This document shows positions 2 to 6,857 of a stretch of DNA of 6,857 bases, in pieces. The stretch is taken from positions 1 through 6,857 of the IMG/VR virus record IMGVR_UViG_2648501206_000004; one strand, given 5' to 3'. Origin of the DNA: a virus (lineage: Duplodnaviria; Heunggongvirae; Uroviricota; Caudoviricetes). Made by a program: the position numbers and the translations under genes. Below the pieces are notes generated by a model that saw only the letters and a program-made list of their open reading frames with translations, searched no databases and was not told the DNA's origin. Each line of letters begins with the position of its first letter. Position 1 is the stretch's first letter.

Positions 2-556
2 GTCAGTGTGCTTAACCTGGGTACTATTGATGAACCAGGTCACGCAGATAACACCGCCACTCTCAAACTGAAAAAGACAGCACCGTTCTCTGCTCTGTTG
101 TCTGTTAATGGCGAGCGTCATTCCCAGAAGTCACTGGCAGAATGGATTGAAGACTGGGCCGACTACCTTGTGGGTTTTGATGCTAATGGTGACGCTATTC
201 AGGCAACAAAAGCGGCTGCGGCTGTCCGTAAAATCACGATTGAAGCAAACCAGACCGCTGATTTTGAAGATAATGACTTCAGCGGCAAACGCTCCCTGAT
301 GGAGTCTGTCGAAGCGAAAACCAAAGATATTATGCCTGTGGCATTTGAATTTAAATGCGTTCCGTTTGAAGGTCTGAAAGAACGTCCATTTAAATTACGC
401 CTCAGCATTATCACTGGCGATCGTCCTGTACTGGTTCTGCGCATTATTCAGCTGGAGGCGGTGCAGGAAGAAATGGCTAACGAATTTCGTGATCTGCTTG
501 TTGAGAAATTCAAAGACAGCAAAGTAGAAACCTTTATTGGTACTTTCACCGCCTGA
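2..556 (+). CDS. Prophage hypothetical protein, 5'-partial (open to the window edge); possibly YfdQ-like
   Basis: The frame is open from position 2 (codons gtc, agt, gtg...) with no stop back to the edge, so the listed GTG start at 8 is probably internal. Stop TGA at 554..556. It lies immediately upstream of, and co-directional with, an HD-domain gene, as yfdQ-yfdR does in KplE1 (recalled synteny, not a sequence match). Confidence 0.6.
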
Positions 557-568
557 TTTCATTACTGC

Positions 569-590
569 AAATGCCCCTGCGGGGGCATTT
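569..590 (+). terminator. Putative intrinsic terminator or attenuator hairpin after the first ORF
   Basis: Perfect 9-bp inverted repeat AAATGCCCC / GGGGCATTT with a 4-nt loop TGCG, 13 nt after the stop. The T-tract is short (TTTAT), so termination may be partial. Confidence 0.45.
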
Positions 591-683
591 ATGGAAACGT
601 AATTGACTCAATAATCGCCGGATGGTGAGGGCTTCCTTTTACCAGAATTCAGCGTGGTGCAGCACATATACGCGGAGAACAAA

Positions 684-1220
684 ATGTCATTTATTAAAAC
701 TTTTTCCGGGAAGCATTTTTATTATGACAGGATAAATAAAGACGACATCGTGATTAACGATATCGCGGTTTCCCTTTCAAATATCTGTCGCTTTGCCGGT
801 CATCTTTCACACTTCTACAGTGTCGCCCAACATGCGGTGCTTTGCAGCCAGCTGGTGCAGCAGGAATTTGCTTTTGAAGCGTTAATGCATGATGCAACAG
901 AAGCATATTGCCAGGACATCCCCGCGCCACTGAAACGCCTTCTTCCTGACTATAAACGGATGGAAGAAAAAATAGACGCCGTAATCCGTGAGAAATACGG
1001 GTTACCTCCTGTTATGAGCACGCCAGTGAAATATGCCGATCTCATTATGCTGGCAACCGAACGCCGCGATCTCGGGCTTGATGATGGCTCTTTCTGGCCG
1101 GTACTGGAAGGCATCCCGGCAACAGAGATGTTCAACGTGATTCCAATGCCACCGGGCCATGCCTACGGGATGTTTATGGAACGCTTTCACGAGTTATCGG
1201 AGTTACGCAAATGCGCATGA
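684..1220 (+). CDS. yfdR: HD-domain phosphohydrolase (5'-deoxynucleotidase YfdR/YfbR-like)
   Basis: HD-superfamily motifs are visible in the translation: FAGHLSH, then LMHDATEAY (the HD dyad), then PVKYADLIML. Start placed at ATG 684 (MSFIKTF...) with a GGAG Shine-Dalgarno 6 nt upstream, rather than the GTG at 654 in the ORF track. This gives 178 aa, the length I recall for K-12 YfdR. The symbol rests on motif and recalled length and synteny, not a search. Confidence 0.8.
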   Translation: MSFIKTFSGKHFYYDRINKDDIVINDIAVSLSNICRFAGHLSHFYSVAQHAVLCSQLVQQEFAFEALMHDATEAYCQDIPAPLKRLLPDYKRMEEKIDAVIREKYGLPPVMSTPVKYADLIMLATERRDLGLDDGSFWPVLEGIPATEMFNVIPMPPGHAYGMFMERFHELSELRKCA

Positions 1221-1573
1221 ATGTTTTCGAAATGGAAGGGTTTCTTCGCGGGAGATGTGTACCACGAGACCTGAAAGTGAATGAAACGGATGCTGAATAC
1301 CTGGTGCGTAAATTAGATGCGCTTGAAGCTAAATGTGCAGCACTGGAAAACAAAGTAATACCAGTGTCAGCTGAACTGCCACCAGCAAATGAAAGTGTTC
1401 TGTTATTTGATGCTAACGGAGAAGGCTGGCTGATTGGCTGGCGTTCTCTCTGGTACACATGGGGGCAAAAAGAAACCGGAGAATGGCAGTGGACATTTCA
1501 GGTCGGGGACCTTGAAAACGTCAATATCACTCACTGGGCAGTAATGCCGAAAGCACCGGAGAATAAGAAATGA
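1211..1573 (+). CDS. yfdS: Small prophage hypothetical protein (YfdS-like)
   Basis: 120-aa ORF overlapping the upstream stop (ATG at 1211 with GGAG 8 nt upstream; an alternative ATG at 1217 forms an ATGA overlap with the stop at 1218..1220). Coiled-coil-like N-terminus. The symbol is inferred from position after the HD gene and from the recalled 120-aa length of YfdS. Confidence 0.55.
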   Translation: MRMNVFEMEGFLRGRCVPRDLKVNETDAEYLVRKLDALEAKCAALENKVIPVSAELPPANESVLLFDANGEGWLIGWRSLWYTWGQKETGEWQWTFQVGDLENVNITHWAVMPKAPENKK

Positions 1574-1785
1574 GCGTGATAAAAACTCATACAGGAATTG
1601 TTATTACCCGAAACGGTCCGCAGGTAAAAAAACTGCACCAGACAAAGCGGATGTGGGTCGTCGGAAAAAACGAGTTTTACCACAAAGAAACCGGACGCCG
1701 CCACTTTGCAGAAAATACGCGCCGCCGACTGCTCCTGGACAGCATCAGGCCAATTAAACAGGTAGCAACCATAGAACAAAATTAA
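1570..1785 (+). CDS. Small basic prophage hypothetical protein
   Basis: 71-aa ORF whose ATG overlaps the upstream stop as ATGA (1570..1573), with GGAG 8 nt upstream. Lys/Arg-rich. No family recognised. Confidence 0.5.
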   Translation: MSVIKTHTGIVITRNGPQVKKLHQTKRMWVVGKNEFYHKETGRRHFAENTRRRLLLDSIRPIKQVATIEQN

Positions 1786-1846
1786 TTATCAGGACTGAAA
1801 TTTGATATTACTGCCCGTGTGCAGCGGGTTAAGTGGAGAAACAGCC

Positions 1847-2056
1847 ATGGCAAAACTAATGAAAGCGAGCCAATGGGGACGCCGTGAATTCTCTAATGGC
1901 TCAATTCCTGACAACCGAACGATAAAACGCTGGGTCGAGAACGGTCTGCTCATGGGGCGTATCGTGGACGGTTCTGTTTTTGTCTGCGAAACAGAAAAAT
2001 GGGGAGTCGACTCAATGGTTAGTCAAGCTGTTCGCAAGTTAATAAATGAGGGGTGA
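1847..2056 (+). CDS. xis: Excisionase (lambda Xis-like recombination directionality factor)
   Basis: About 69 aa from ATG 1847 (GGAG at 1835..1838). The translation (ASQWGRREFSNGSIPDNRTIKRWVENGLLMGRIVDGSVF) parallels the lambda Xis winged-helix region (QEWNARQRRPRSLETVRRWVRECRIFPPPVKDGREYLF). The stop abuts or overlaps the integrase start, the classic xis-int arrangement. The TTG start at 1802 in the ORF track is considered less likely. Confidence 0.7.
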   Translation: MAKLMKASQWGRREFSNGSIPDNRTIKRWVENGLLMGRIVDGSVFVCETEKWGVDSMVSQAVRKLINEG

Positions 2057-2058
2057 CC

Positions 2059-3237
2059 ATGGCGGCAAGGCCACGTAAAAAAGAATACAGACATCTTCCT
2101 GATTATCTGATTTTTGATAAAGATCGAGGTGTTTATAAATTCACACTTATTACCGGAAAGAAGAAAAATATAGGTAAGGATAGGGCAATAGCCATTGCAA
2201 TCGCCAGAGAGTACAACCTGAGGATGCGACCAGAATTATCTCCATCAGTAGATAATCTTATTAGAGAATCTGGCGGTGTTATCGGAGAAGCAAAACCATT
2301 TGCTGAACATGTTGATCACATAATGGCCCGAATTATCGAAGACGAACGTCCTTCCCAGAGCACCTTAGATGACTGGAAAAATGACGCTCTACGCGTAAAA
2401 GCGTTTTTCGTAAATGTTCCGGCATGCGATATCGAACTTGAACACGTTAATACCTACATCAACAAATATCATGCCAGCGCATCCGCAAATGTGCAGAACA
2501 GAAAGGTCAGCTTTCTTAAAAAGTTGTTCTCTTATGCGGTCGATGAATCACTAATGCTGGATAACCCGGCCATCAGAAAAAAAATGCGTAGGACTGATGA
2601 GAAGAAAAGACGGCGCCTGTCACTCGAGCATTTTATAGCTATCAGGCAGGCCGCTGCACCATGGTTAAGAACAGCAATGGACCTAGCATTGCAGACTACA
2701 CATGCACGACTCGAAGTATCGCGAATCCGTTACTCAATTCGCGAACCTAAAGACGGTATATGTGGATGTGTCTGGTTCGAACAACCACAAAATGGCATAT
2801 ATGGGACGCTTTACATCCACAGGCAAAAAGTGCAACAAAAAGAGGCGTCACACGTTGCAATACCAATTGGTGAAGAGTTGAAACGGATAATTGACGATAG
2901 CCGAGATAATGTGGCCAGTCCGTTTGTCGTTCACAGGCTCCCAGAACGCCAAGTTAAACGCAGCAAAGAGGTTTCACATCCTACTCAAGTTGCACCGGAC
3001 TATTTGAGTAGGTCGTTTTCAGCTACACGGGACAAACTAGGTTTATGCGACAATCTACCAATGGATGAAAGACCAACCTTTCACGAAATTCGAGCACTAG
3101 CAGCGCATCTATTCGATCAGCAGGGTATCGATCCACAAGGACGAATGGCGCACAGCGATGCGAAGTCAACCAAGATCTACACGCAAAATCATATAGATTG
3201 GGTTGTCGTTCCCCATGGAGAAATTAAAGCCAGCTAA
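2059..3237 (+). CDS. int: Tyrosine site-specific integrase, lambda Int family, with N-terminal arm-binding domain
   Basis: The N-terminus (MAARPRKKEYRHLPDYLIF...GKDRAIAIAIAREYNLRM) parallels the lambda Int arm-binding domain (MGRRRSHERRDLPPNLYI...GRDRRIAITEAIQANIEL). The C-terminus carries HEIRALAAH (box II H-x-x-R) and AHSDAKSTKIYT, with the H-to-Y spacing of lambda Int H333/Y342. Start placed at ATG 2059 (GAGGGG Shine-Dalgarno 6 nt upstream); a GTG at 2053 would overlap the xis stop as GTGA. Confidence 0.92.
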   Translation: MAARPRKKEYRHLPDYLIFDKDRGVYKFTLITGKKKNIGKDRAIAIAIAREYNLRMRPELSPSVDNLIRESGGVIGEAKPFAEHVDHIMARIIEDERPSQSTLDDWKNDALRVKAFFVNVPACDIELEHVNTYINKYHASASANVQNRKVSFLKKLFSYAVDESLMLDNPAIRKKMRRTDEKKRRRLSLEHFIAIRQAAAPWLRTAMDLALQTTHARLEVSRIRYSIREPKDGICGCVWFEQPQNGIYGTLYIHRQKVQQKEASHVAIPIGEELKRIIDDSRDNVASPFVVHRLPERQVKRSKEVSHPTQVAPDYLSRSFSATRDKLGLCDNLPMDERPTFHEIRALAAHLFDQQGIDPQGRMAHSDAKSTKIYTQNHIDWVVVPHGEIKAS

Positions 3238-3271
3238 TAATAAATTACTCCCTTTATTGCTTTAGTATAAA

Positions 3272-3303
3272 GCAGAGCAAACCAAATTGGACGGGTTGCT
3301 CTG
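3272..3303. terminator. Bidirectional intrinsic terminator hairpin between convergent int and the cargo gene
   Basis: Inverted repeat CAGAGCAA(ACC) / (GG)TTGCTCTG at 3273..3283 and 3293..3303 with a 9-nt loop, about 35 nt past the int stop and 28 nt past the cargo-gene stop. The flanks are AT-rich on both sides. Confidence 0.5.
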
Positions 3304-3330
3304 TGTTGGAAGTTGAGGAATGTATTAATT

Positions 3331-4182
3331 TCAAAGTGAGTAATTGGAGAGTTCTTCAATCATTGACCGATAATGTATACCGATACTATCGGCAAATTTT
3401 TCGCCCATCCCCTCAACTGACGCAATTAGGCAGTCTGTAGCAACCTTCAGGGATATTATGACTAAGCAGATGTCAGCTTCACTGGGTGCACCATGACCGC
3501 TAAATTCATCAATCCTGTGGATAGCCAGTGGCAATGGATGAGCCAGATTTGATAGTAACTGGTGATGTAGTGCAATGTCGGCTAACCGCGGGCAGCGAGC
3601 TTCGAACTCAGCTTTGGTATAATACATTTCGGCCCTGTTTTTGAGACTATTCTTTTGTTCTTTAGATAGTGAACTATAGAATTCATGGTTCACTATCTCC
3701 TCCTGCTGCTTTGGTATGCCGGTGAAAAACTCCTCCAGTGATTCTTCAGATTCACCAGCCTTCAGTCTGATATCACGCCATTTAACATTTCTGTCTTTCT
3801 GGAAAATTCGAAAACGAAAGTCAGCCTCCGCTTCCGAGACCGTTTCCGTTCCGTAATAAAAAAGCGCCTGAAAATTTTCCATCACACTTCTGGACACAAG
3901 TGCGATAGTGGTTACATCCCATACTGTATCATCGGGATTAACTCCGTTTCGCAGTACTGGTAGTAGTTTCTTAAGACTATGCGCAGTCAACACTTGACGA
4001 GTGAAAATATTTGCAGCCCGTATTCCCCTGCCGTCAGTCTTAATTCCGCTTTGATTCAGTGATATGGCCGCGGAAATTTCACAAGCGCGGCAGAAGATCT
4101 TATAAAGGCTAATGTAAGACCTCTCAACCTCAGTGTGTTCTCGGAAACGAATGTTACTGCCTTTTTTAGTTCTTTTTTTCAT
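3331..4182 (-). CDS. Orphan cargo (moron) protein of unknown function, 283 aa; candidate accessory or defence gene
   Basis: Long minus-strand ORF convergent with int. ATG at 4180..4182 is preceded on the mRNA by AGAGG with a 7-nt spacer. Hand counts on two 60-nt samples inside it gave about 40% and 47% GC, against about 53% for one sample in the downstream autotransporter. Basic N-terminus (MKKRTKKGSNIRFREH). Two R-x6-H spacings in the C-terminal half (RLADIALH, RIDEFSGH). I do not recognise the family. Confidence 0.7.
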   Translation of the reverse strand: MKKRTKKGSNIRFREHTEVERSYISLYKIFCRACEISAAISLNQSGIKTDGRGIRAANIFTRQVLTAHSLKKLLPVLRNGVNPDDTVWDVTTIALVSRSVMENFQALFYYGTETVSEAEADFRFRIFQKDRNVKWRDIRLKAGESEESLEEFFTGIPKQQEEIVNHEFYSSLSKEQKNSLKNRAEMYYTKAEFEARCPRLADIALHHQLLSNLAHPLPLAIHRIDEFSGHGAPSEADICLVIISLKVATDCLIASVEGMGEKFADSIGIHYRSMIEELSNYSL

Positions 4183-4374
4183 TATCCAGCCTCTAGTAGT
4201 TTATTCTGGCATTATGTCACACAACTCTTCGAAACTATTCAAACATGGGGAGAAACCACCATGTAAGCCATTGAAGTATATAGAGCAGATTATGTCGAAA
4301 AAGCACTGTTTGTTTATACATGCAAATGGTACTTCTAACCAGCAATAGCGCGGCTCTCAGCGTTTTACAAGCGG

Positions 4375-4423
4375 CGTCATGGGGTGTCGGGGGTCGGAGG
4401 TTCAAATCCTCTCGTGCCGACCA
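4375..4423 (+). repeat. Prophage att core: 3' 49-nt fragment of tRNA-Pro(GGG) (proL-like), lacking the 5' half
   Basis: Anticodon loop AUGGGGU (anticodon GGG), T-arm GGAGG-TTCAAAT-CCTCT, acceptor 3' strand CGTGCCG, discriminator A and CCA are all present. The complementary 5' acceptor strand CGGCACG is absent from the preceding 100 nt, so this is not an intact tRNA. It matches my recollection of the E. coli proL 3' end. Confidence 0.65.
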
Positions 4424-4431
4424 AAAATCCC

Positions 4432-4463
4432 AAAAAAAACCAACCGTAAAGGTTGGTTTTTTT
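4432..4463. terminator. Rho-independent terminator, bidirectional (native tRNA-Pro terminator; also serves the convergent autotransporter gene)
   Basis: A8-CCAACC-GTAAA-GGTTGG-T7: a 6-bp GC-containing stem extended by an A-run/T-run, with a 5-nt loop. It lies 9 nt after the tRNA CCA end and about 60 nt past the minus-strand autotransporter stop. Confidence 0.8.
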
Positions 4464-4524
4464 ATATCTGCATTTAATTCGATAAACAGACCGCGACACA
4501 TCACGGCCTGTTTATTGTCTGTTA

Positions 4525-6857
4525 TCAGAACGTCCAGACCACACCCGCCTGGGTATTCCACGGCGATTCTACCCCTGCGCCATTGCCATAGCTGACTGAC
4601 AAATGACCGCTTAACGTCGGGGTAAACGATGACCTTATCCCAGCCTGATAAACGCCACTGGTTCCAGCCACATCATTATTAAATTTGCCATCGTCATTAA
4701 CTTTCACCTGGTTAGAATCGGCGTATTCCTGACGCACGGCGGCTTTCAGCCAGGGTTCCAGCGTCGTACCGTTTTGCAGGTCCATGTGATAGCTTACCGC
4801 CGTTCCCGCTTCAGCGCGTAATATCCGGGTATTTCCCACGTCCGCGCGCATGCCGTTTGATAACGTGTAGTCCTGACCATCTGTGGTAAAGCCGGTAAAG
4901 GCCAGATAGGGTCTAACACTCCACAATCCGTCAACCCAACGGAACCCGCTCTCAACATGAGCACCCGCGCCGTTACTATTGTAATCGCCAAACGCTGTTG
5001 CCCCATTACTCATCTTGCCATGGATGGTGTTGGCAAAACGGTCAACTTTCACCACCCCATCAACATAGGCACCGTTCTGATGCTCCCAACCGGCATAAGC
5101 ACCCAGGGTATAGCTATCGACATTGCCTTTGCCGCCGCGATCAAAACCAATATCAGAATGAGAGTAACCAAAGAACAAGCCGCGAATTGTGCTGCTTTCT
5201 TCACGGGAGAAACGGCTATCGATACCGAGCGTCAGGCCCGTCAATGTTTGCTCAAAACCAGCTCCCGCATCAGTGGTCACGTTGTTGCGGGTGTTAATTG
5301 CCGAACTCCACATCGCCGTATCGTAACTAACGCCTTTTACGCTACCAAGACGCTCACGCACGGTGTCCAGTTCTGCATCAAATACCAGCGGTTGTGCGGC
5401 CGCCATATTCAGCACATCAGTGGTTGAAGGGGTAATTTGCGCGCGATTCTCTGCCAGACTCCAGCTATGGTTGCCATTATCCAGCAAGGTATATTCATAC
5501 GTACCGATATCAACAACGCCTCCGGCATTGCCCAACGTAAATGCAGCATCACCGCCGCCCGTTGTTACCAGTGTAAGGCTATCTCCTGCTGCCGGGCTGG
5601 CACCGGTGTCCGTCACGAATATTTTGAAATCACCTGTTGCCTGACCGGTGACGTTGAGCTGATCGCTCTGATGATTAGCCATATCGGTACGCATATAAAA
5701 ATTGCCGTTTCCCGACAGGGTATTGGTGGTCAACGTAATGAAATTTTTCGCACTTGCCGTCACTGATGAACGAGTCACTGGCTCATCCATCATAATCACA
5801 TTTGCGTCAGACATCGCAAGGTTGGCTAAGTTGAGGAGGGTGTTTTGGTTCGTCGTAGTGATATCGGCAATGATGGTCCATACGCTATTTTCGAGCGAAA
5901 CGTCCGCTTTGCTGGTATCCACGGCACCATGCGTTCTAAAAGAAGCGCCCTCAGAAACCACTACCTTACCCACCAACATTGCGGGTGCATAATTTATTTG
6001 CGGCTTCATGACCTCAAGAATGCCATCATTCCCTCTGACTGACACGTTAACCATTGTGCCAGCCCAGACGTTAGCGCGGCCATTGTTGATAACCATATTT
6101 TCAGAGATGGCTTTTGAGGAATACGTGATACTTCCATTCTGATCTGATCGACCGAGATCATATACCGCATTTGCCTGCACTCTCGTCCCAGTATCCTTTC
6201 CCAGCGATTGCATAGTGGCATGCTCATCAAGGATAGTGTCAATGGCCTGCGTGTCCTCCATAACAATAAGCCCGGAACCATCATCCAGTTCATAATTTTT
6301 TGACACACCATCTTTTATACTAAATTGGCCTTTACTGTTTGTACCACTCACTTCCAGCGCATTCGTTGAGACAATTAATTTTCCGCCTGCTTTTTTATCA
6401 ACGCCAGTTGCAGTCCCGCCATCCATAACCTCCAGTAAGCCGCCACTATCTACAGTAGTATTATAAGCGAAGTCATTTTCTTCAACTCGCAAACTTCCGC
6501 CGTTTTCCAACAGCATATTGTTTGCAATTCCATTCTTGATATCGAACTGACCGAGACGGTTTGTTCCGAATACCTCCATGACCCGCGTGGTTGCTTTAAT
6601 AGCACCGCCTGCCTTCTGATCTACCGCAAATGCTAATCCCCCGTCTTTAACCTCCAGTAATCCTCCCTTTTCGATAGCGGCAAAGACGGCAATCCCATCT
6701 TTTTCAACAATTAAGCGCCCGCCTTTAATCGTGGGATCATTCGCCGCGCCATAAACCTGTAGCACACCATTATTGAGCGTAGTCTGGTTTGCCGCGCCAC
6801 CCATTTGAACAATTTGATAACCATCATTTAATACTGAGTACTGATGAATCCCCTAAT
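4525..6857 (-). CDS. yejO: AIDA-I/Ag43-type autotransporter adhesin, N-terminally truncated by the window edge (YejO-like by position)
   Basis: The C-terminus ends ...PWNTQAGVVWTF, a typical autotransporter beta-barrel terminus, preceded by about 280 aa of alternating-polarity beta-strand sequence. The passenger region has repetitive G-G-x-L-x-V motifs typical of a beta-helix. The reading frame stays open from 6804 to the window end at 6857, so the true start is outside the window. The symbol is by synteny only: as I recall, K-12 has an autotransporter gene, yejO, immediately downstream of proL on the opposite strand. Confidence 0.85.

What the first reader, a model, noticed from the sequence alone, without database searches (positions are those of the whole stretch)
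3331..4182. Orphan 283-aa cargo gene between the integrase and the att core
A lambda-type int normally ends about 100 bp from the att core. Here about 1.1 kb separates them, and a convergent, AT-rich ORF with its own ribosome-binding site occupies the gap. The int-att junction is a known hotspot for accessory genes in lambdoid and P2-like prophages, including abortive-infection genes (e14 Lit is the example I recall). I cannot assign the protein to any family from the sequence. It has a basic N-terminus and two R-x6-H spacings (RLADIALH, RIDEFSGH) that are loosely reminiscent of HEPN RNase motifs, and no HExxH, Walker A or obvious transmembrane segment. This is the best candidate in the window for an undescribed single-gene defence or exclusion function.
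Basis: partly seen in the sequence, partly recalled or inferred. Interest (0 to 1): 0.8.

Follow-up and report, generated by a model that had tools for sequence, protein, structure and literature searches.

The report
Mobile orphan gene in prophage defence slot
A real, well-conserved 283-aa gene of unknown function sits in a swap-in cargo slot at the edge of an E. coli prophage where sibling prophages carry anti-phage genes, which makes it a reasonable but untested candidate for a new single-gene phage-exclusion factor.

Summary
A 283-aa ORF (3331-4182, minus strand) lies convergent to a lambda-type integrase, 1,137 nt separate the int stop from the att core, and the ORF has a GAGG ribosome-binding site. 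The gene is under strong purifying selection (dN/dS 0.03-0.12). It is not family-less. It is a divergent branch of the DUF5677 (PF18928) superfamily, which has at least 1,016 clusters at 50% identity, no known function and no solved structure. The residues conserved across the superfamily are D89, R98-x3-E102, E119-x3-R123 and S211-x3-H215. The cargo reading is well supported. Of 5,426 complete E. coli genomes, 109 carry this integrase and 1 carries the gene. Sibling prophages hold at least six other cargos in the same slot, including an AbiL-type pair and PADLOC candidate PDC-S31. The gene moves as a cassette, has no conserved partner, and recurs on a P4-like satellite, in lambdoid nin regions, at a Burkholderia prophage edge and beside R-M or HerA genes. 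Defence is inferred from context only. The one DUF5677 ORF tested elsewhere, in Enterococcus, was not among the ORFs reported as protective.

The parts
3331..4182 (-). 283-aa cargo gene. It encodes a soluble, all-helical, divergent DUF5677-superfamily protein (identical to WP_000747443.1, annotated hypothetical).
   Evidence: ORF; homologues; DUF5677 link; dN/dS 0.03-0.12; AlphaFold2 model pLDDT 88.7, pTM 0.85, 11 helices.
4190..4193 (-). Ribosome-binding site GAGG, 7 nt upstream of the ATG at 4182.
   Evidence: Read directly from the sequence.
4289..4316 (-). Sigma-70 promoter-like site (TAAACA-16-CATAAT, 9 of 12 matches), about 107 nt upstream of the start codon. This is a prediction only.
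   Evidence: The number of such sites in the region does not exceed the shuffle expectation, so this is weak evidence.
3272..3304 (.). GC-containing hairpin in the 93-nt spacer between the convergent int and cargo genes. It is a possible bidirectional terminator.
   Evidence: RNAfold of 3238-3331 on both strands gives -20.9 and -21.8 kcal/mol. The terminator scan did not call it.
2053..3237 (+). Lambda-type tyrosine integrase with an Arm DNA-binding domain, convergent with the cargo gene.
   Evidence: Pfam Arm-DNA-bind_1 and Phage_integrase; annotated as a phage integrase in NZ_AP026937.
3180..4182 (.). Exchanged cassette. This stretch is 96-100% identical to a prophage (L045) whose integrase and upstream genes are only 61-88% identical. 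The breakpoint lies inside the 3' end of int. The far boundary (beyond 4182) could not be seen because the L045 contig ends there.
   Evidence: tblastn; sliding-window identity.
4245..4374 (.). Phage-side attR arm, conserved among sibling prophages whatever cargo they carry.
   Evidence: Homology to other E. coli genomes begins at about 4245; alignment of five attR junctions.
4375..4431 (+). att core: a 57-nt direct repeat made of the 3' part of tRNA-Pro (proL) plus a few downstream bases.
   Evidence: Direct repeat flanking the prophage in EC20-4B-2; alignment with the intact tRNA-Pro at attL.

Best explanation
The ORF is a stand-alone, horizontally exchanged cargo cassette. It sits in the variable int-att slot of a lambdoid prophage with e14-like and CPS-53-like genes, integrated at tRNA-Pro (proL) between yejM and yejO. 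It encodes a soluble all-helical protein from a divergent branch of the DUF5677 superfamily. Shown: it is a real gene under purifying selection; it has no conserved partner; it moves between unrelated mobile elements; and its slot holds recognised defence genes in sibling prophages. Inferred: it most likely acts for the lysogen as a single-protein phage-exclusion or abortive-infection factor, expressed from its own promoter. The conserved polar set D89, R98-x3-E102, E119-x3-R123 and S211-x3-H215 would form a catalytic or ligand pocket. Its Arg/Glu/His composition resembles metal-independent RNases such as the PrrC anticodon nuclease, so cleavage of an RNA (or hydrolysis of a nucleotide) on infection is my preferred mechanism. 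I put the defence role at about 0.4 and the specific RNase mechanism at about 0.15.
For: Real gene: dN/dS 0.03-0.12, full-length alignment to homologues, and at least 1,016 related clusters. Hotspot: 109 of 5,426 E. coli genomes carry the integrase and 1 carries the gene. Sampled siblings carry six other cargo sets, including AbiLi (E 1.6e-64) and PDC-S31 (E 4.9e-22). Cassette mobility: the cargo is 99.6% identical in a prophage whose int is 88% identical, and identity drops sharply at about 3180. Recurrence on other mobile elements: the att-proximal edge of a Klebsiella P4-like satellite on more than 144 contigs, lambdoid nin regions, a Burkholderia prophage beside its integrase, a Pseudomonas mobile-element region beside HicAB and an AAA_15/AAA_21 ATPase, and a Pseudomonas plasmid. 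Defence neighbours in chromosomal loci: Type I R-M with AAA_13, HerA immediately upstream, and Type III R-M. No partner: only the homologue itself is shared among 12 distant loci, and neighbours of similar size are unrelated. Enzyme-like core: R123 and S211 are invariant, and D89, R98 and H215 are present in 95 of 96 sequences down to about 18% identity. Precedent: lit lies convergent to intE in e14. PrrC uses an Arg-x3-Glu plus His triad (PMC1484252).
Confidence: 0.4

Rival explanations
1. The gene is a phage-benefit accessory gene, such as a counter-defence or anti-restriction factor or a lytic-cycle helper, and does not protect the host. It would travel with phages and satellites because it helps them overcome resident immunity.
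For: In lambdoid phages it lies in the nin region, co-oriented with early genes between RusA and a Rha/ANT gene (similar). Chromosomal homologues lie beside R-M systems, which is also where anti-restriction genes could be retained. A DUF5677 ORF was not among the protective ORFs in E. faecalis.
Against: In this window the gene is convergent to int with its own RBS and a promoter-like site. That is the arrangement of lysogen-expressed morons such as lit. The same slot in sibling prophages holds AbiL-type and PDC-S31 genes. Many homologues lie in chromosomes far from any phage.
Confidence: 0.2
2. The protein is a non-enzymatic helical module, either a sensor or a ligand- or protein-binding domain. 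Its conserved polar residues would bind a partner instead of catalysing a reaction, so any biological effect would be regulatory.
For: Two superfamily members fuse the domain C-terminally to a STAND/NB-ARC-like P-loop (GPPGVGKTELAREF). From general knowledge of STAND proteins, that position is usually occupied by the sensor. The fold is a plain helical bundle with no enzyme match.
Against: Seven polar residues (D, R, E, E, R, S, H) survive down to about 18% identity across phyla and contexts. That is more typical of a catalytic site than of a surface that tracks fast-evolving partners. The protein is nearly always stand-alone, with no conserved neighbour to regulate.
Confidence: 0.15
3. The gene is a selfish or neutral passenger with a cellular role unrelated to phages, for example a stress or metabolic function, carried along by recombination at a permissive site.
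For: About half of the distant loci show only housekeeping neighbours. The family is found across many phyla.
Against: Strong purifying selection holds even among mobile-element-borne copies. The gene recurs in the cargo slots of at least four kinds of mobile element. It is rare in E. coli (1 of 5,426 complete genomes), which argues against a core cellular role.
Confidence: 0.15
4. The protein is a canonical HEPN RNase using one of the two R-x6-H pairs.
Confidence: 0.05

Closest known systems
DUF5677 (Pfam PF18928), a family of unknown function
   Same: Homologues at 39% identity reach the Pfam model (P0024 scores 28.3 bits against a cut-off of 27.1). Of 58 family members, 33 match it weakly. 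More distant relatives found by the profile search score 38-47 bits. The shared signature is [DE]-E-x3-R and S-x3-H-x2-P.
   Different: The window protein itself gets no DUF5677 hit even at E <= 1. Its enterobacterial clade carries additional clade-invariant residues (R52, G53, R55, Q63, N132, E185, Y187, N212). No function or structure is known for the family, so membership explains nothing about mechanism.
Lit (cell death peptidase) of cryptic prophage e14
   Same: The genomic architecture is the same: a single accessory gene adjacent to a lambda-type integrase and convergent with it, between int and the att junction. The prophage backbone is related, with ymfK, ymfL, ymfT and ymfQ-like genes.
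   Different: Lit is a zinc metalloprotease with an HExxH motif (established knowledge). This protein has no HExxH, and no PADLOC model hits it.
AbiL-type pair and PDC-S31 (DUF2971) in the same slot of sibling prophages
   Same: They occupy the identical position, between the same integrase family and the same proL att arm.
   Different: There is no sequence relationship. AbiL is a two-gene ATPase system, while this is a single gene with no NTPase motif.
PrrC/RloC anticodon nuclease domain
   Same: Both conserve an Arg-x3-Glu plus a distal His (R98, E102, H215 here; Arg320, Glu324, His356 in PrrC, PMC1484252). Both are helical and phage-related. One homologue lies beside a Type I R-M locus that includes an AAA_13 gene.
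   Different: There is no ABC-ATPase domain and no detectable sequence similarity (no PADLOC hit). The spacing from Glu to His is 113 residues here against 32 in PrrC. This is a resemblance in composition only.
HEPN superfamily RNases

Membership tests
DUF5677 (PF18928) | The protein scores at or above the Pfam gathering threshold (27.1 bits) against the family model. | tested here: not met
   The window protein has no DUF5677 hit at E <= 1.
DUF5677 (PF18928) | Transitive homology: significant full-length similarity to proteins that do match the model. | tested here: met
   P0024 matches the window protein at E 2.4e-53 and scores 28.3 bits on PF18928. 33 of 58 members match weakly. Relatives found by the profile search score 38-47 bits.
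HEPN RNases | A conserved R-x4-6-H catalytic motif. | tested here: not met
   All three R-x4-6-H strings (62-68, 199-206, 223-230) are unconserved in alignments of 58 and 96 sequences.
HEPN RNases | A four-helix HEPN fold that is specifically similar to solved HEPN domains. | tested here: inconclusive
HEPN RNases | Metal-independent RNase activity. | not testable with these tools
   This needs biochemistry.
PrrC/RloC anticodon nucleases | An N-terminal ABC-type NTPase domain. | tested here: not met
   There is no Walker A motif and no NTPase Pfam hit.
PrrC/RloC anticodon nucleases | A conserved Arg-x3-Glu plus His triad. | tested here: inconclusive
   R98 (95 of 96), E102 (85 E plus 10 D of 96) and H215 (95 of 96) are conserved. 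However, the spacing differs, there is no sequence similarity to PADLOC models, and spatial proximity could not be checked.
Lit / peptidase U49 | An HExxH zinc-binding motif. | tested here: not met
   The motif is absent.
Known anti-phage defence systems (PADLOC-DB v2.0.0) | A match to any defence or candidate-defence protein model. | tested here: not met
   0 families at E <= 10.
Prophage int-att cargo (moron) hotspot | The gene lies between the integrase and the att site, and the content varies among related prophages at the same site. | tested here: met
   Seven cargo sets were found beside one integrase family at proL/yejO. The att arm is conserved regardless of cargo.
Prophage int-att cargo (moron) hotspot | The slot carries recognised defence genes in relatives. 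| tested here: met
   AbiLi E 1.6e-64 and PDC-S31 E 4.9e-22.
Prophage int-att cargo (moron) hotspot | Autonomous expression from its own promoter and terminator in the lysogen. | tested here: inconclusive
   A GAGG RBS is present. The promoter-like site matches 9 of 12 positions, but such sites are no more frequent than in shuffles. A hairpin lies in the spacer. No expression data are available.
Type II toxin-antitoxin module | A conserved adjacent partner gene. | tested here: not met
   No neighbour is shared among 12 distant loci. Neighbours of similar size are unrelated. No plausible small ORF lies in 3238-4380.

The most novel reading that the evidence does not exclude
The DUF5677 superfamily, with at least 1,016 clusters at 50% identity across many phyla, would be a previously unrecognised class of stand-alone, single-protein anti-phage effectors. 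It would use a new helical fold with an Arg-Glu-His (plus Ser/Asp) active site, most likely as a metal-independent RNase, and would spread as a one-gene cassette between prophage int-att slots, P4-like satellites, lambdoid nin regions and plasmids.
Probability: 0.15. Interest if true: 0.7.

Novelty: new member of a known kind. Interest (0 to 1): 0.5.

Why it matters
If the gene protects against phages, a large domain-of-unknown-function family would gain a function, and a compact single-gene system with a possibly new catalytic fold would join the defence repertoire. It would also document a proL-integrating prophage lineage in E. coli whose int-att slot behaves as a swap-in cassette site, with at least seven alternative cargos, five of them entirely uncharacterised. 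That gives a small, defined set of candidates for experimental screening. If it does not protect, it remains an ordinary prophage moron of unknown function.

Tried and rejected
1. **Same-length gene in TW14425.** The 852-bp gene in the same slot of strain TW14425 is not homologous (BLASTP E 7.9).
2. **Conserved partner gene.** The neighbours of about 210-224 aa seen in four loci are unrelated to each other. An all-against-all BLASTP of neighbours in 12 distant loci found only the homologue itself shared between loci.
3. **Link to Tdk1.** Five of 58 members hit Pfam Mug135_C, the C-terminal domain of the S. pombe killer meiotic driver Tdk1. The hits fall on non-equivalent regions (142-180 in P0030, 73-114 in P0073) and no stretch passes on its own, so I rejected this as noise.
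4. **MtlR/HEPN-like N-terminal domains.** I recalled that the N-terminal extensions of the fused members P0178, P0242 and P0266 might be MtlR/HEPN-like. A PDB phmmer search found nothing, so I dropped the idea.
5. **Solved structures.** Single-sequence and two profile searches of PDB sequences gave no meaningful hits. Foldseek against PDB and against BFVD viral models found nothing with E below 0.49. The afdb50 library was not available.
6. **Membrane protein.** Rejected: GRAVY is -0.32, and the only hydrophobic 19-mer contains K and D.
7. **Structured RNA partner or antitoxin.** The only Rfam match is a sub-threshold OrzO-P hit (27.9 bits against a gathering score of 60) on the proL terminator.
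8. **Phage and plasmid databases.** tblastn found no match in 50,697 phage records and one in plasmids, a Pseudomonas plasmid at 42.5% identity.
9. **Literature.** Nothing was found for the accession WP_000747443. Only two papers mention DUF5677.

Full report
**Observation**

The window is the right end of a prophage inserted at the tRNA-Pro (proL) site between yejM and yejO. The 283-aa ORF at 3331-4182 on the minus strand is present as described. It is convergent with a lambda-type integrase at 2053-3237, which matches the Arm-DNA-bind_1 and Phage_integrase models. A GAGG lies 7 nt upstream of the ATG.

ARAGORN finds no tRNA in the window. The complete prophage in E. coli EC20-4B-2 (99.2% identical over 3100-4600) is flanked by a 57-nt direct repeat, which is the 3' part of tRNA-Pro plus a few bases. 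In the window this core is at 4375-4431, so the distance from the int stop to the core is 1,137 nt. A phage-side arm at 4245-4374 is conserved among related prophages whatever lies between it and int.

The ORF is 43.4% GC. That is like int (44.2%) and below yejO (49.7%), so it is prophage-like in composition and not a separate island inside the prophage.

**Is it a real gene?**

Yes. It aligns end to end with homologues, including the basic N-terminus. dN/dS is 0.03-0.12 against the six of eight homologues for which it could be computed; the eight range from 99.6% to 64% amino-acid identity, and synonymous sites were saturated in the other two. An exhaustive profile search finds 1,016 clusters at 50% identity with E <= 0.001, of which 485 have E <= 1e-10.

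**What family is it?**

The protein itself hits nothing in Pfam, NCBIfam, PADLOC or PHROGs. It has no relative among PDB sequences by single-sequence or profile search.

Homologues fall into two groups. The first is an enterobacterial clade at 63-95% identity (E. coli, Citrobacter, Klebsiella, Atlantibacter). The second is a broad set at 35-43% identity in Bacteroidota, Ignavibacteria, Acidobacteriota, Thermodesulfobacteriota, Pseudomonas, Shewanella and Burkholderia.

Members of the second group reach Pfam DUF5677 (PF18928). P0024 scores 28.3 bits against a cut-off of 27.1, 33 of 58 members match weakly, and more distant relatives score 38-47 bits. The window protein is therefore a divergent member of the DUF5677 superfamily. 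I found no known function and no solved structure for that superfamily.

**Structure**

An AlphaFold2 model built on a 58-sequence alignment is confident (pLDDT 88.7, pTM 0.85) and consists of eleven helices. The protein is soluble (GRAVY -0.32), and its one hydrophobic helix contains K and D.

**Motifs**

The sequence contains three R-x4-6-H strings: 62-68, 199-206 and 223-230. None is conserved. H68 is Met, Ile or Leu in most homologues. R199 is Val or Ile. H206 is variable. H230 is Arg in 48 of 58. The HEPN hint therefore fails its defining test. There is no HExxH and no Walker A.

Across 96 sequences, down to about 18% identity, the following residues are conserved:
- R123 and S211, invariant (96 of 96)
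- D89, R98 and H215 (95 of 96 each)
- E119 (87 of 96)
- E102 (85 Glu plus 10 Asp)
- W88, P218 and S41 (at least 90%)

The family signature is therefore R-x3-E, [DE]-E-x3-R and S-x3-H-x2-P. A constellation of seven polar residues that survives this much divergence suggests a catalytic or ligand pocket. Its Arg/Glu/His composition recalls the Arg320-x3-Glu324 plus His356 triad of the PrrC anticodon nuclease (PMC1484252). That is an analogy in composition only. There is no detectable sequence similarity and no ATPase domain, and the spacing differs. I could not check whether the residues cluster in space.

**Genomic behaviour**

This is the strongest evidence. The integrase family occurs in 109 of 5,426 complete E. 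coli genomes, always as a single chromosomal copy. The ORF occurs in one of those genomes.

In nine sampled sibling prophages the int-att slot holds six other cargo sets:
- a 289-aa hypothetical (LD91-1)
- a 583-aa hypothetical (3CM)
- a 239-aa hypothetical, with or without an IS3 element (EC_J_9, MINF_2E)
- a 283-aa plus a 66-aa gene (TW14425); the 283-aa gene is unrelated to the one here
- a DUF2971 gene with two small genes (VE-V11-M, FORC_042, 98218)
- a DUF4760 gene with a 167-aa gene and an AAA ATPase (GTEN_24, C11)

The AAA ATPase matches AbiLi (E 1.6e-64), and the DUF2971 protein matches PADLOC candidate PDC-S31 (E 4.9e-22); the others match nothing. So the slot is a true variable hotspot that does hold defence genes. 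The architecture matches the e14 precedent, where lit lies convergent to intE between int and the att junction.

The gene also moves as a cassette. In IMG/VR contig L045 the protein is 99.6% identical, while the adjacent integrase is 88% identical and the upstream genes 61-76%. Sliding-window identity is 96-100% from 4182 down to about 3180, then falls to 67-85%.

Homologues occupy cargo positions in unrelated elements:
- the att-proximal edge of a Klebsiella P4-like satellite, on more than 144 contigs
- lambdoid nin regions in Atlantibacter and in metagenomic phages
- next to the integrase of a Burkholderia prophage
- a Pseudomonas mobile-element region beside HicAB and an AAA_15/AAA_21 ATPase
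- a primase-bearing integrative element
- a Pseudomonas plasmid

Chromosomal homologues lie beside a Type I R-M locus with an AAA_13 gene, directly downstream of HerA, and two genes from a Type III R-M system. Other loci have only housekeeping neighbours.

No neighbour is conserved. An all-against-all comparison of neighbours in 12 distant loci recovers only the homologue itself. Neighbours of similar size are unrelated. This is a one-gene module.

**Interpretation**

- **Shown:** it is a real, selected, soluble DUF5677-superfamily gene. It moves on its own between mobile-element cargo slots. In this window it sits in a slot that holds defence genes in sibling prophages.
- **Inferred:** it gives the lysogen a phage-exclusion or abortive-infection function. 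My preferred mechanism is metal-independent cleavage of an RNA, or nucleotide hydrolysis, by the conserved polar pocket. I put the defence role at about 0.4 and the specific RNase mechanism at about 0.15.
- **Evidence against:** no defence model matches the protein. The only DUF5677 ORF I found tested (a Bacillota gene in E. faecalis against six phages) was not among the five ORFs reported as protective (PMC12632615). The nin-region copies are co-oriented with phage early genes, which fits a phage-benefit role such as counter-defence.
- **Domain fusions:** two superfamily members fuse the domain to a STAND-like P-loop. This links the family loosely to immunity-type architectures but leaves open whether the domain acts as sensor or effector.

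**False leads**

The Mug135_C (Tdk1 meiotic driver) hits fall on non-equivalent regions and were rejected. A recalled MtlR/HEPN likeness of some fused N-terminal domains found no support. Rfam gives only a sub-threshold OrzO-P match on the proL terminator.

**Verdict**

The cargo and hotspot interpretation is supported. The HEPN motif idea is not supported. The defence function is plausible but untested. I class this as a new, divergent member of a catalogued but uncharacterised superfamily, sitting in a known kind of hotspot. Interest is moderate (0.5). It would rise substantially if a phage-resistance phenotype and a catalytic activity were shown.

Noticed in passing
window 3180-4182 compared with L045:1-2130: The cargo gene and the int-cargo spacer are 96-100% identical to a prophage whose integrase (88%) and upstream genes (61-76%) are clearly diverged. 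The breakpoint is sharp and lies inside the 3' end of int. This indicates recent cassette exchange between prophages.
   Followed up: yes
window 4340-4431; L002:3102-3179; L038:8810-8887: In sibling prophages (TW14425, VE-V11-M) PGAP annotates a full 78-nt tRNA-Pro at the attR junction. There the phage arm seems to supply a 5' half that rebuilds a tRNA gene. In the window the corresponding arm differs in sequence and ARAGORN calls no tRNA.
   Followed up: partly
L041:7727-9366 and L042 (E. coli GTEN_24, C11): The same int-att slot carries an AbiL-type pair (379-aa AbiLi ATPase, E 1.6e-64, plus an overlapping 167-aa gene). A DUF4760 gene and transposase remnants sit alongside it.
   Followed up: partly
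L034:5394-6263, L035:5508-7259, L036:5385-6104, L002:1835-2891: Four further cargo sets in the same slot (289 aa, 583 aa, 239 aa, and 283+66 aa) are annotated hypothetical. The four larger proteins hit no PADLOC model; the 66-aa gene was not scanned. They are additional uncharacterised candidates from the same hotspot.
   Followed up: partly
L003-L010 (Klebsiella pneumoniae P4-like satellite), about 8000-9650 and 16350 onward: The 75%-identical homologue sits with an unrelated 222-aa gene between the alpha-type primase and the element edge. That is a second cargo site, distinct from the region beyond psu, where a protein-kinase-domain gene lies.
   Followed up: no
P0158 and P0187 (superfamily members of 496 and 514 aa): The DUF5677-like domain is fused C-terminally to a STAND/NB-ARC-like P-loop region (GPPGVGKTELAREF...LLWL). 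Other members have unannotated N- or C-terminal extensions of 150-230 residues, and one carries DUF1353.
   Followed up: partly
window 4433-4505 (-): There is a sub-threshold Rfam match to the OrzO-P antitoxin RNA (27.9 bits against a gathering score of 60, E 0.062). It overlaps the terminator hairpin at 4433-4463 just downstream of the tRNA-Pro-derived att core and is probably a chance match.
   Followed up: no
window 4525-6804 (-): The yejO autotransporter reading frame is open across 759 aa here. Several related genomes annotate yejO as a pseudogene with internal stops or frameshifts (EC20-4B-2, LD91-1, EC_J_9).
   Followed up: no
window 1802-2056 (+) and 2053: An 84-aa ORF with a weak helix-turn-helix match (DUF4817, E 0.0045) overlaps the GTG start of int by 4 nt. 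It is conserved upstream of int in all sibling prophages (WP_001096409.1) and is probably the excisionase.
   Followed up: no
window 8-1785 (+): The upstream prophage genes are a DUF2303/YfdQ-like protein, a YfdR-like HD-domain 5'-deoxynucleotidase and a DUF551 protein. This is a CPS-53-like early-left region. In relatives it is joined to e14-like ymfK, ymfL and ymfT regulators and Mu-like baseplate genes, so the prophage is a mosaic.
   Followed up: partly
PF08593 Mug135_C hits in P0030 and P0073: Pfam's Mug135_C is the C-terminal domain of Tdk1, a single-gene killer meiotic driver in S. pombe. Five bacterial family members hit it weakly, but on non-equivalent regions, so the link appears spurious.
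   Followed up: yes
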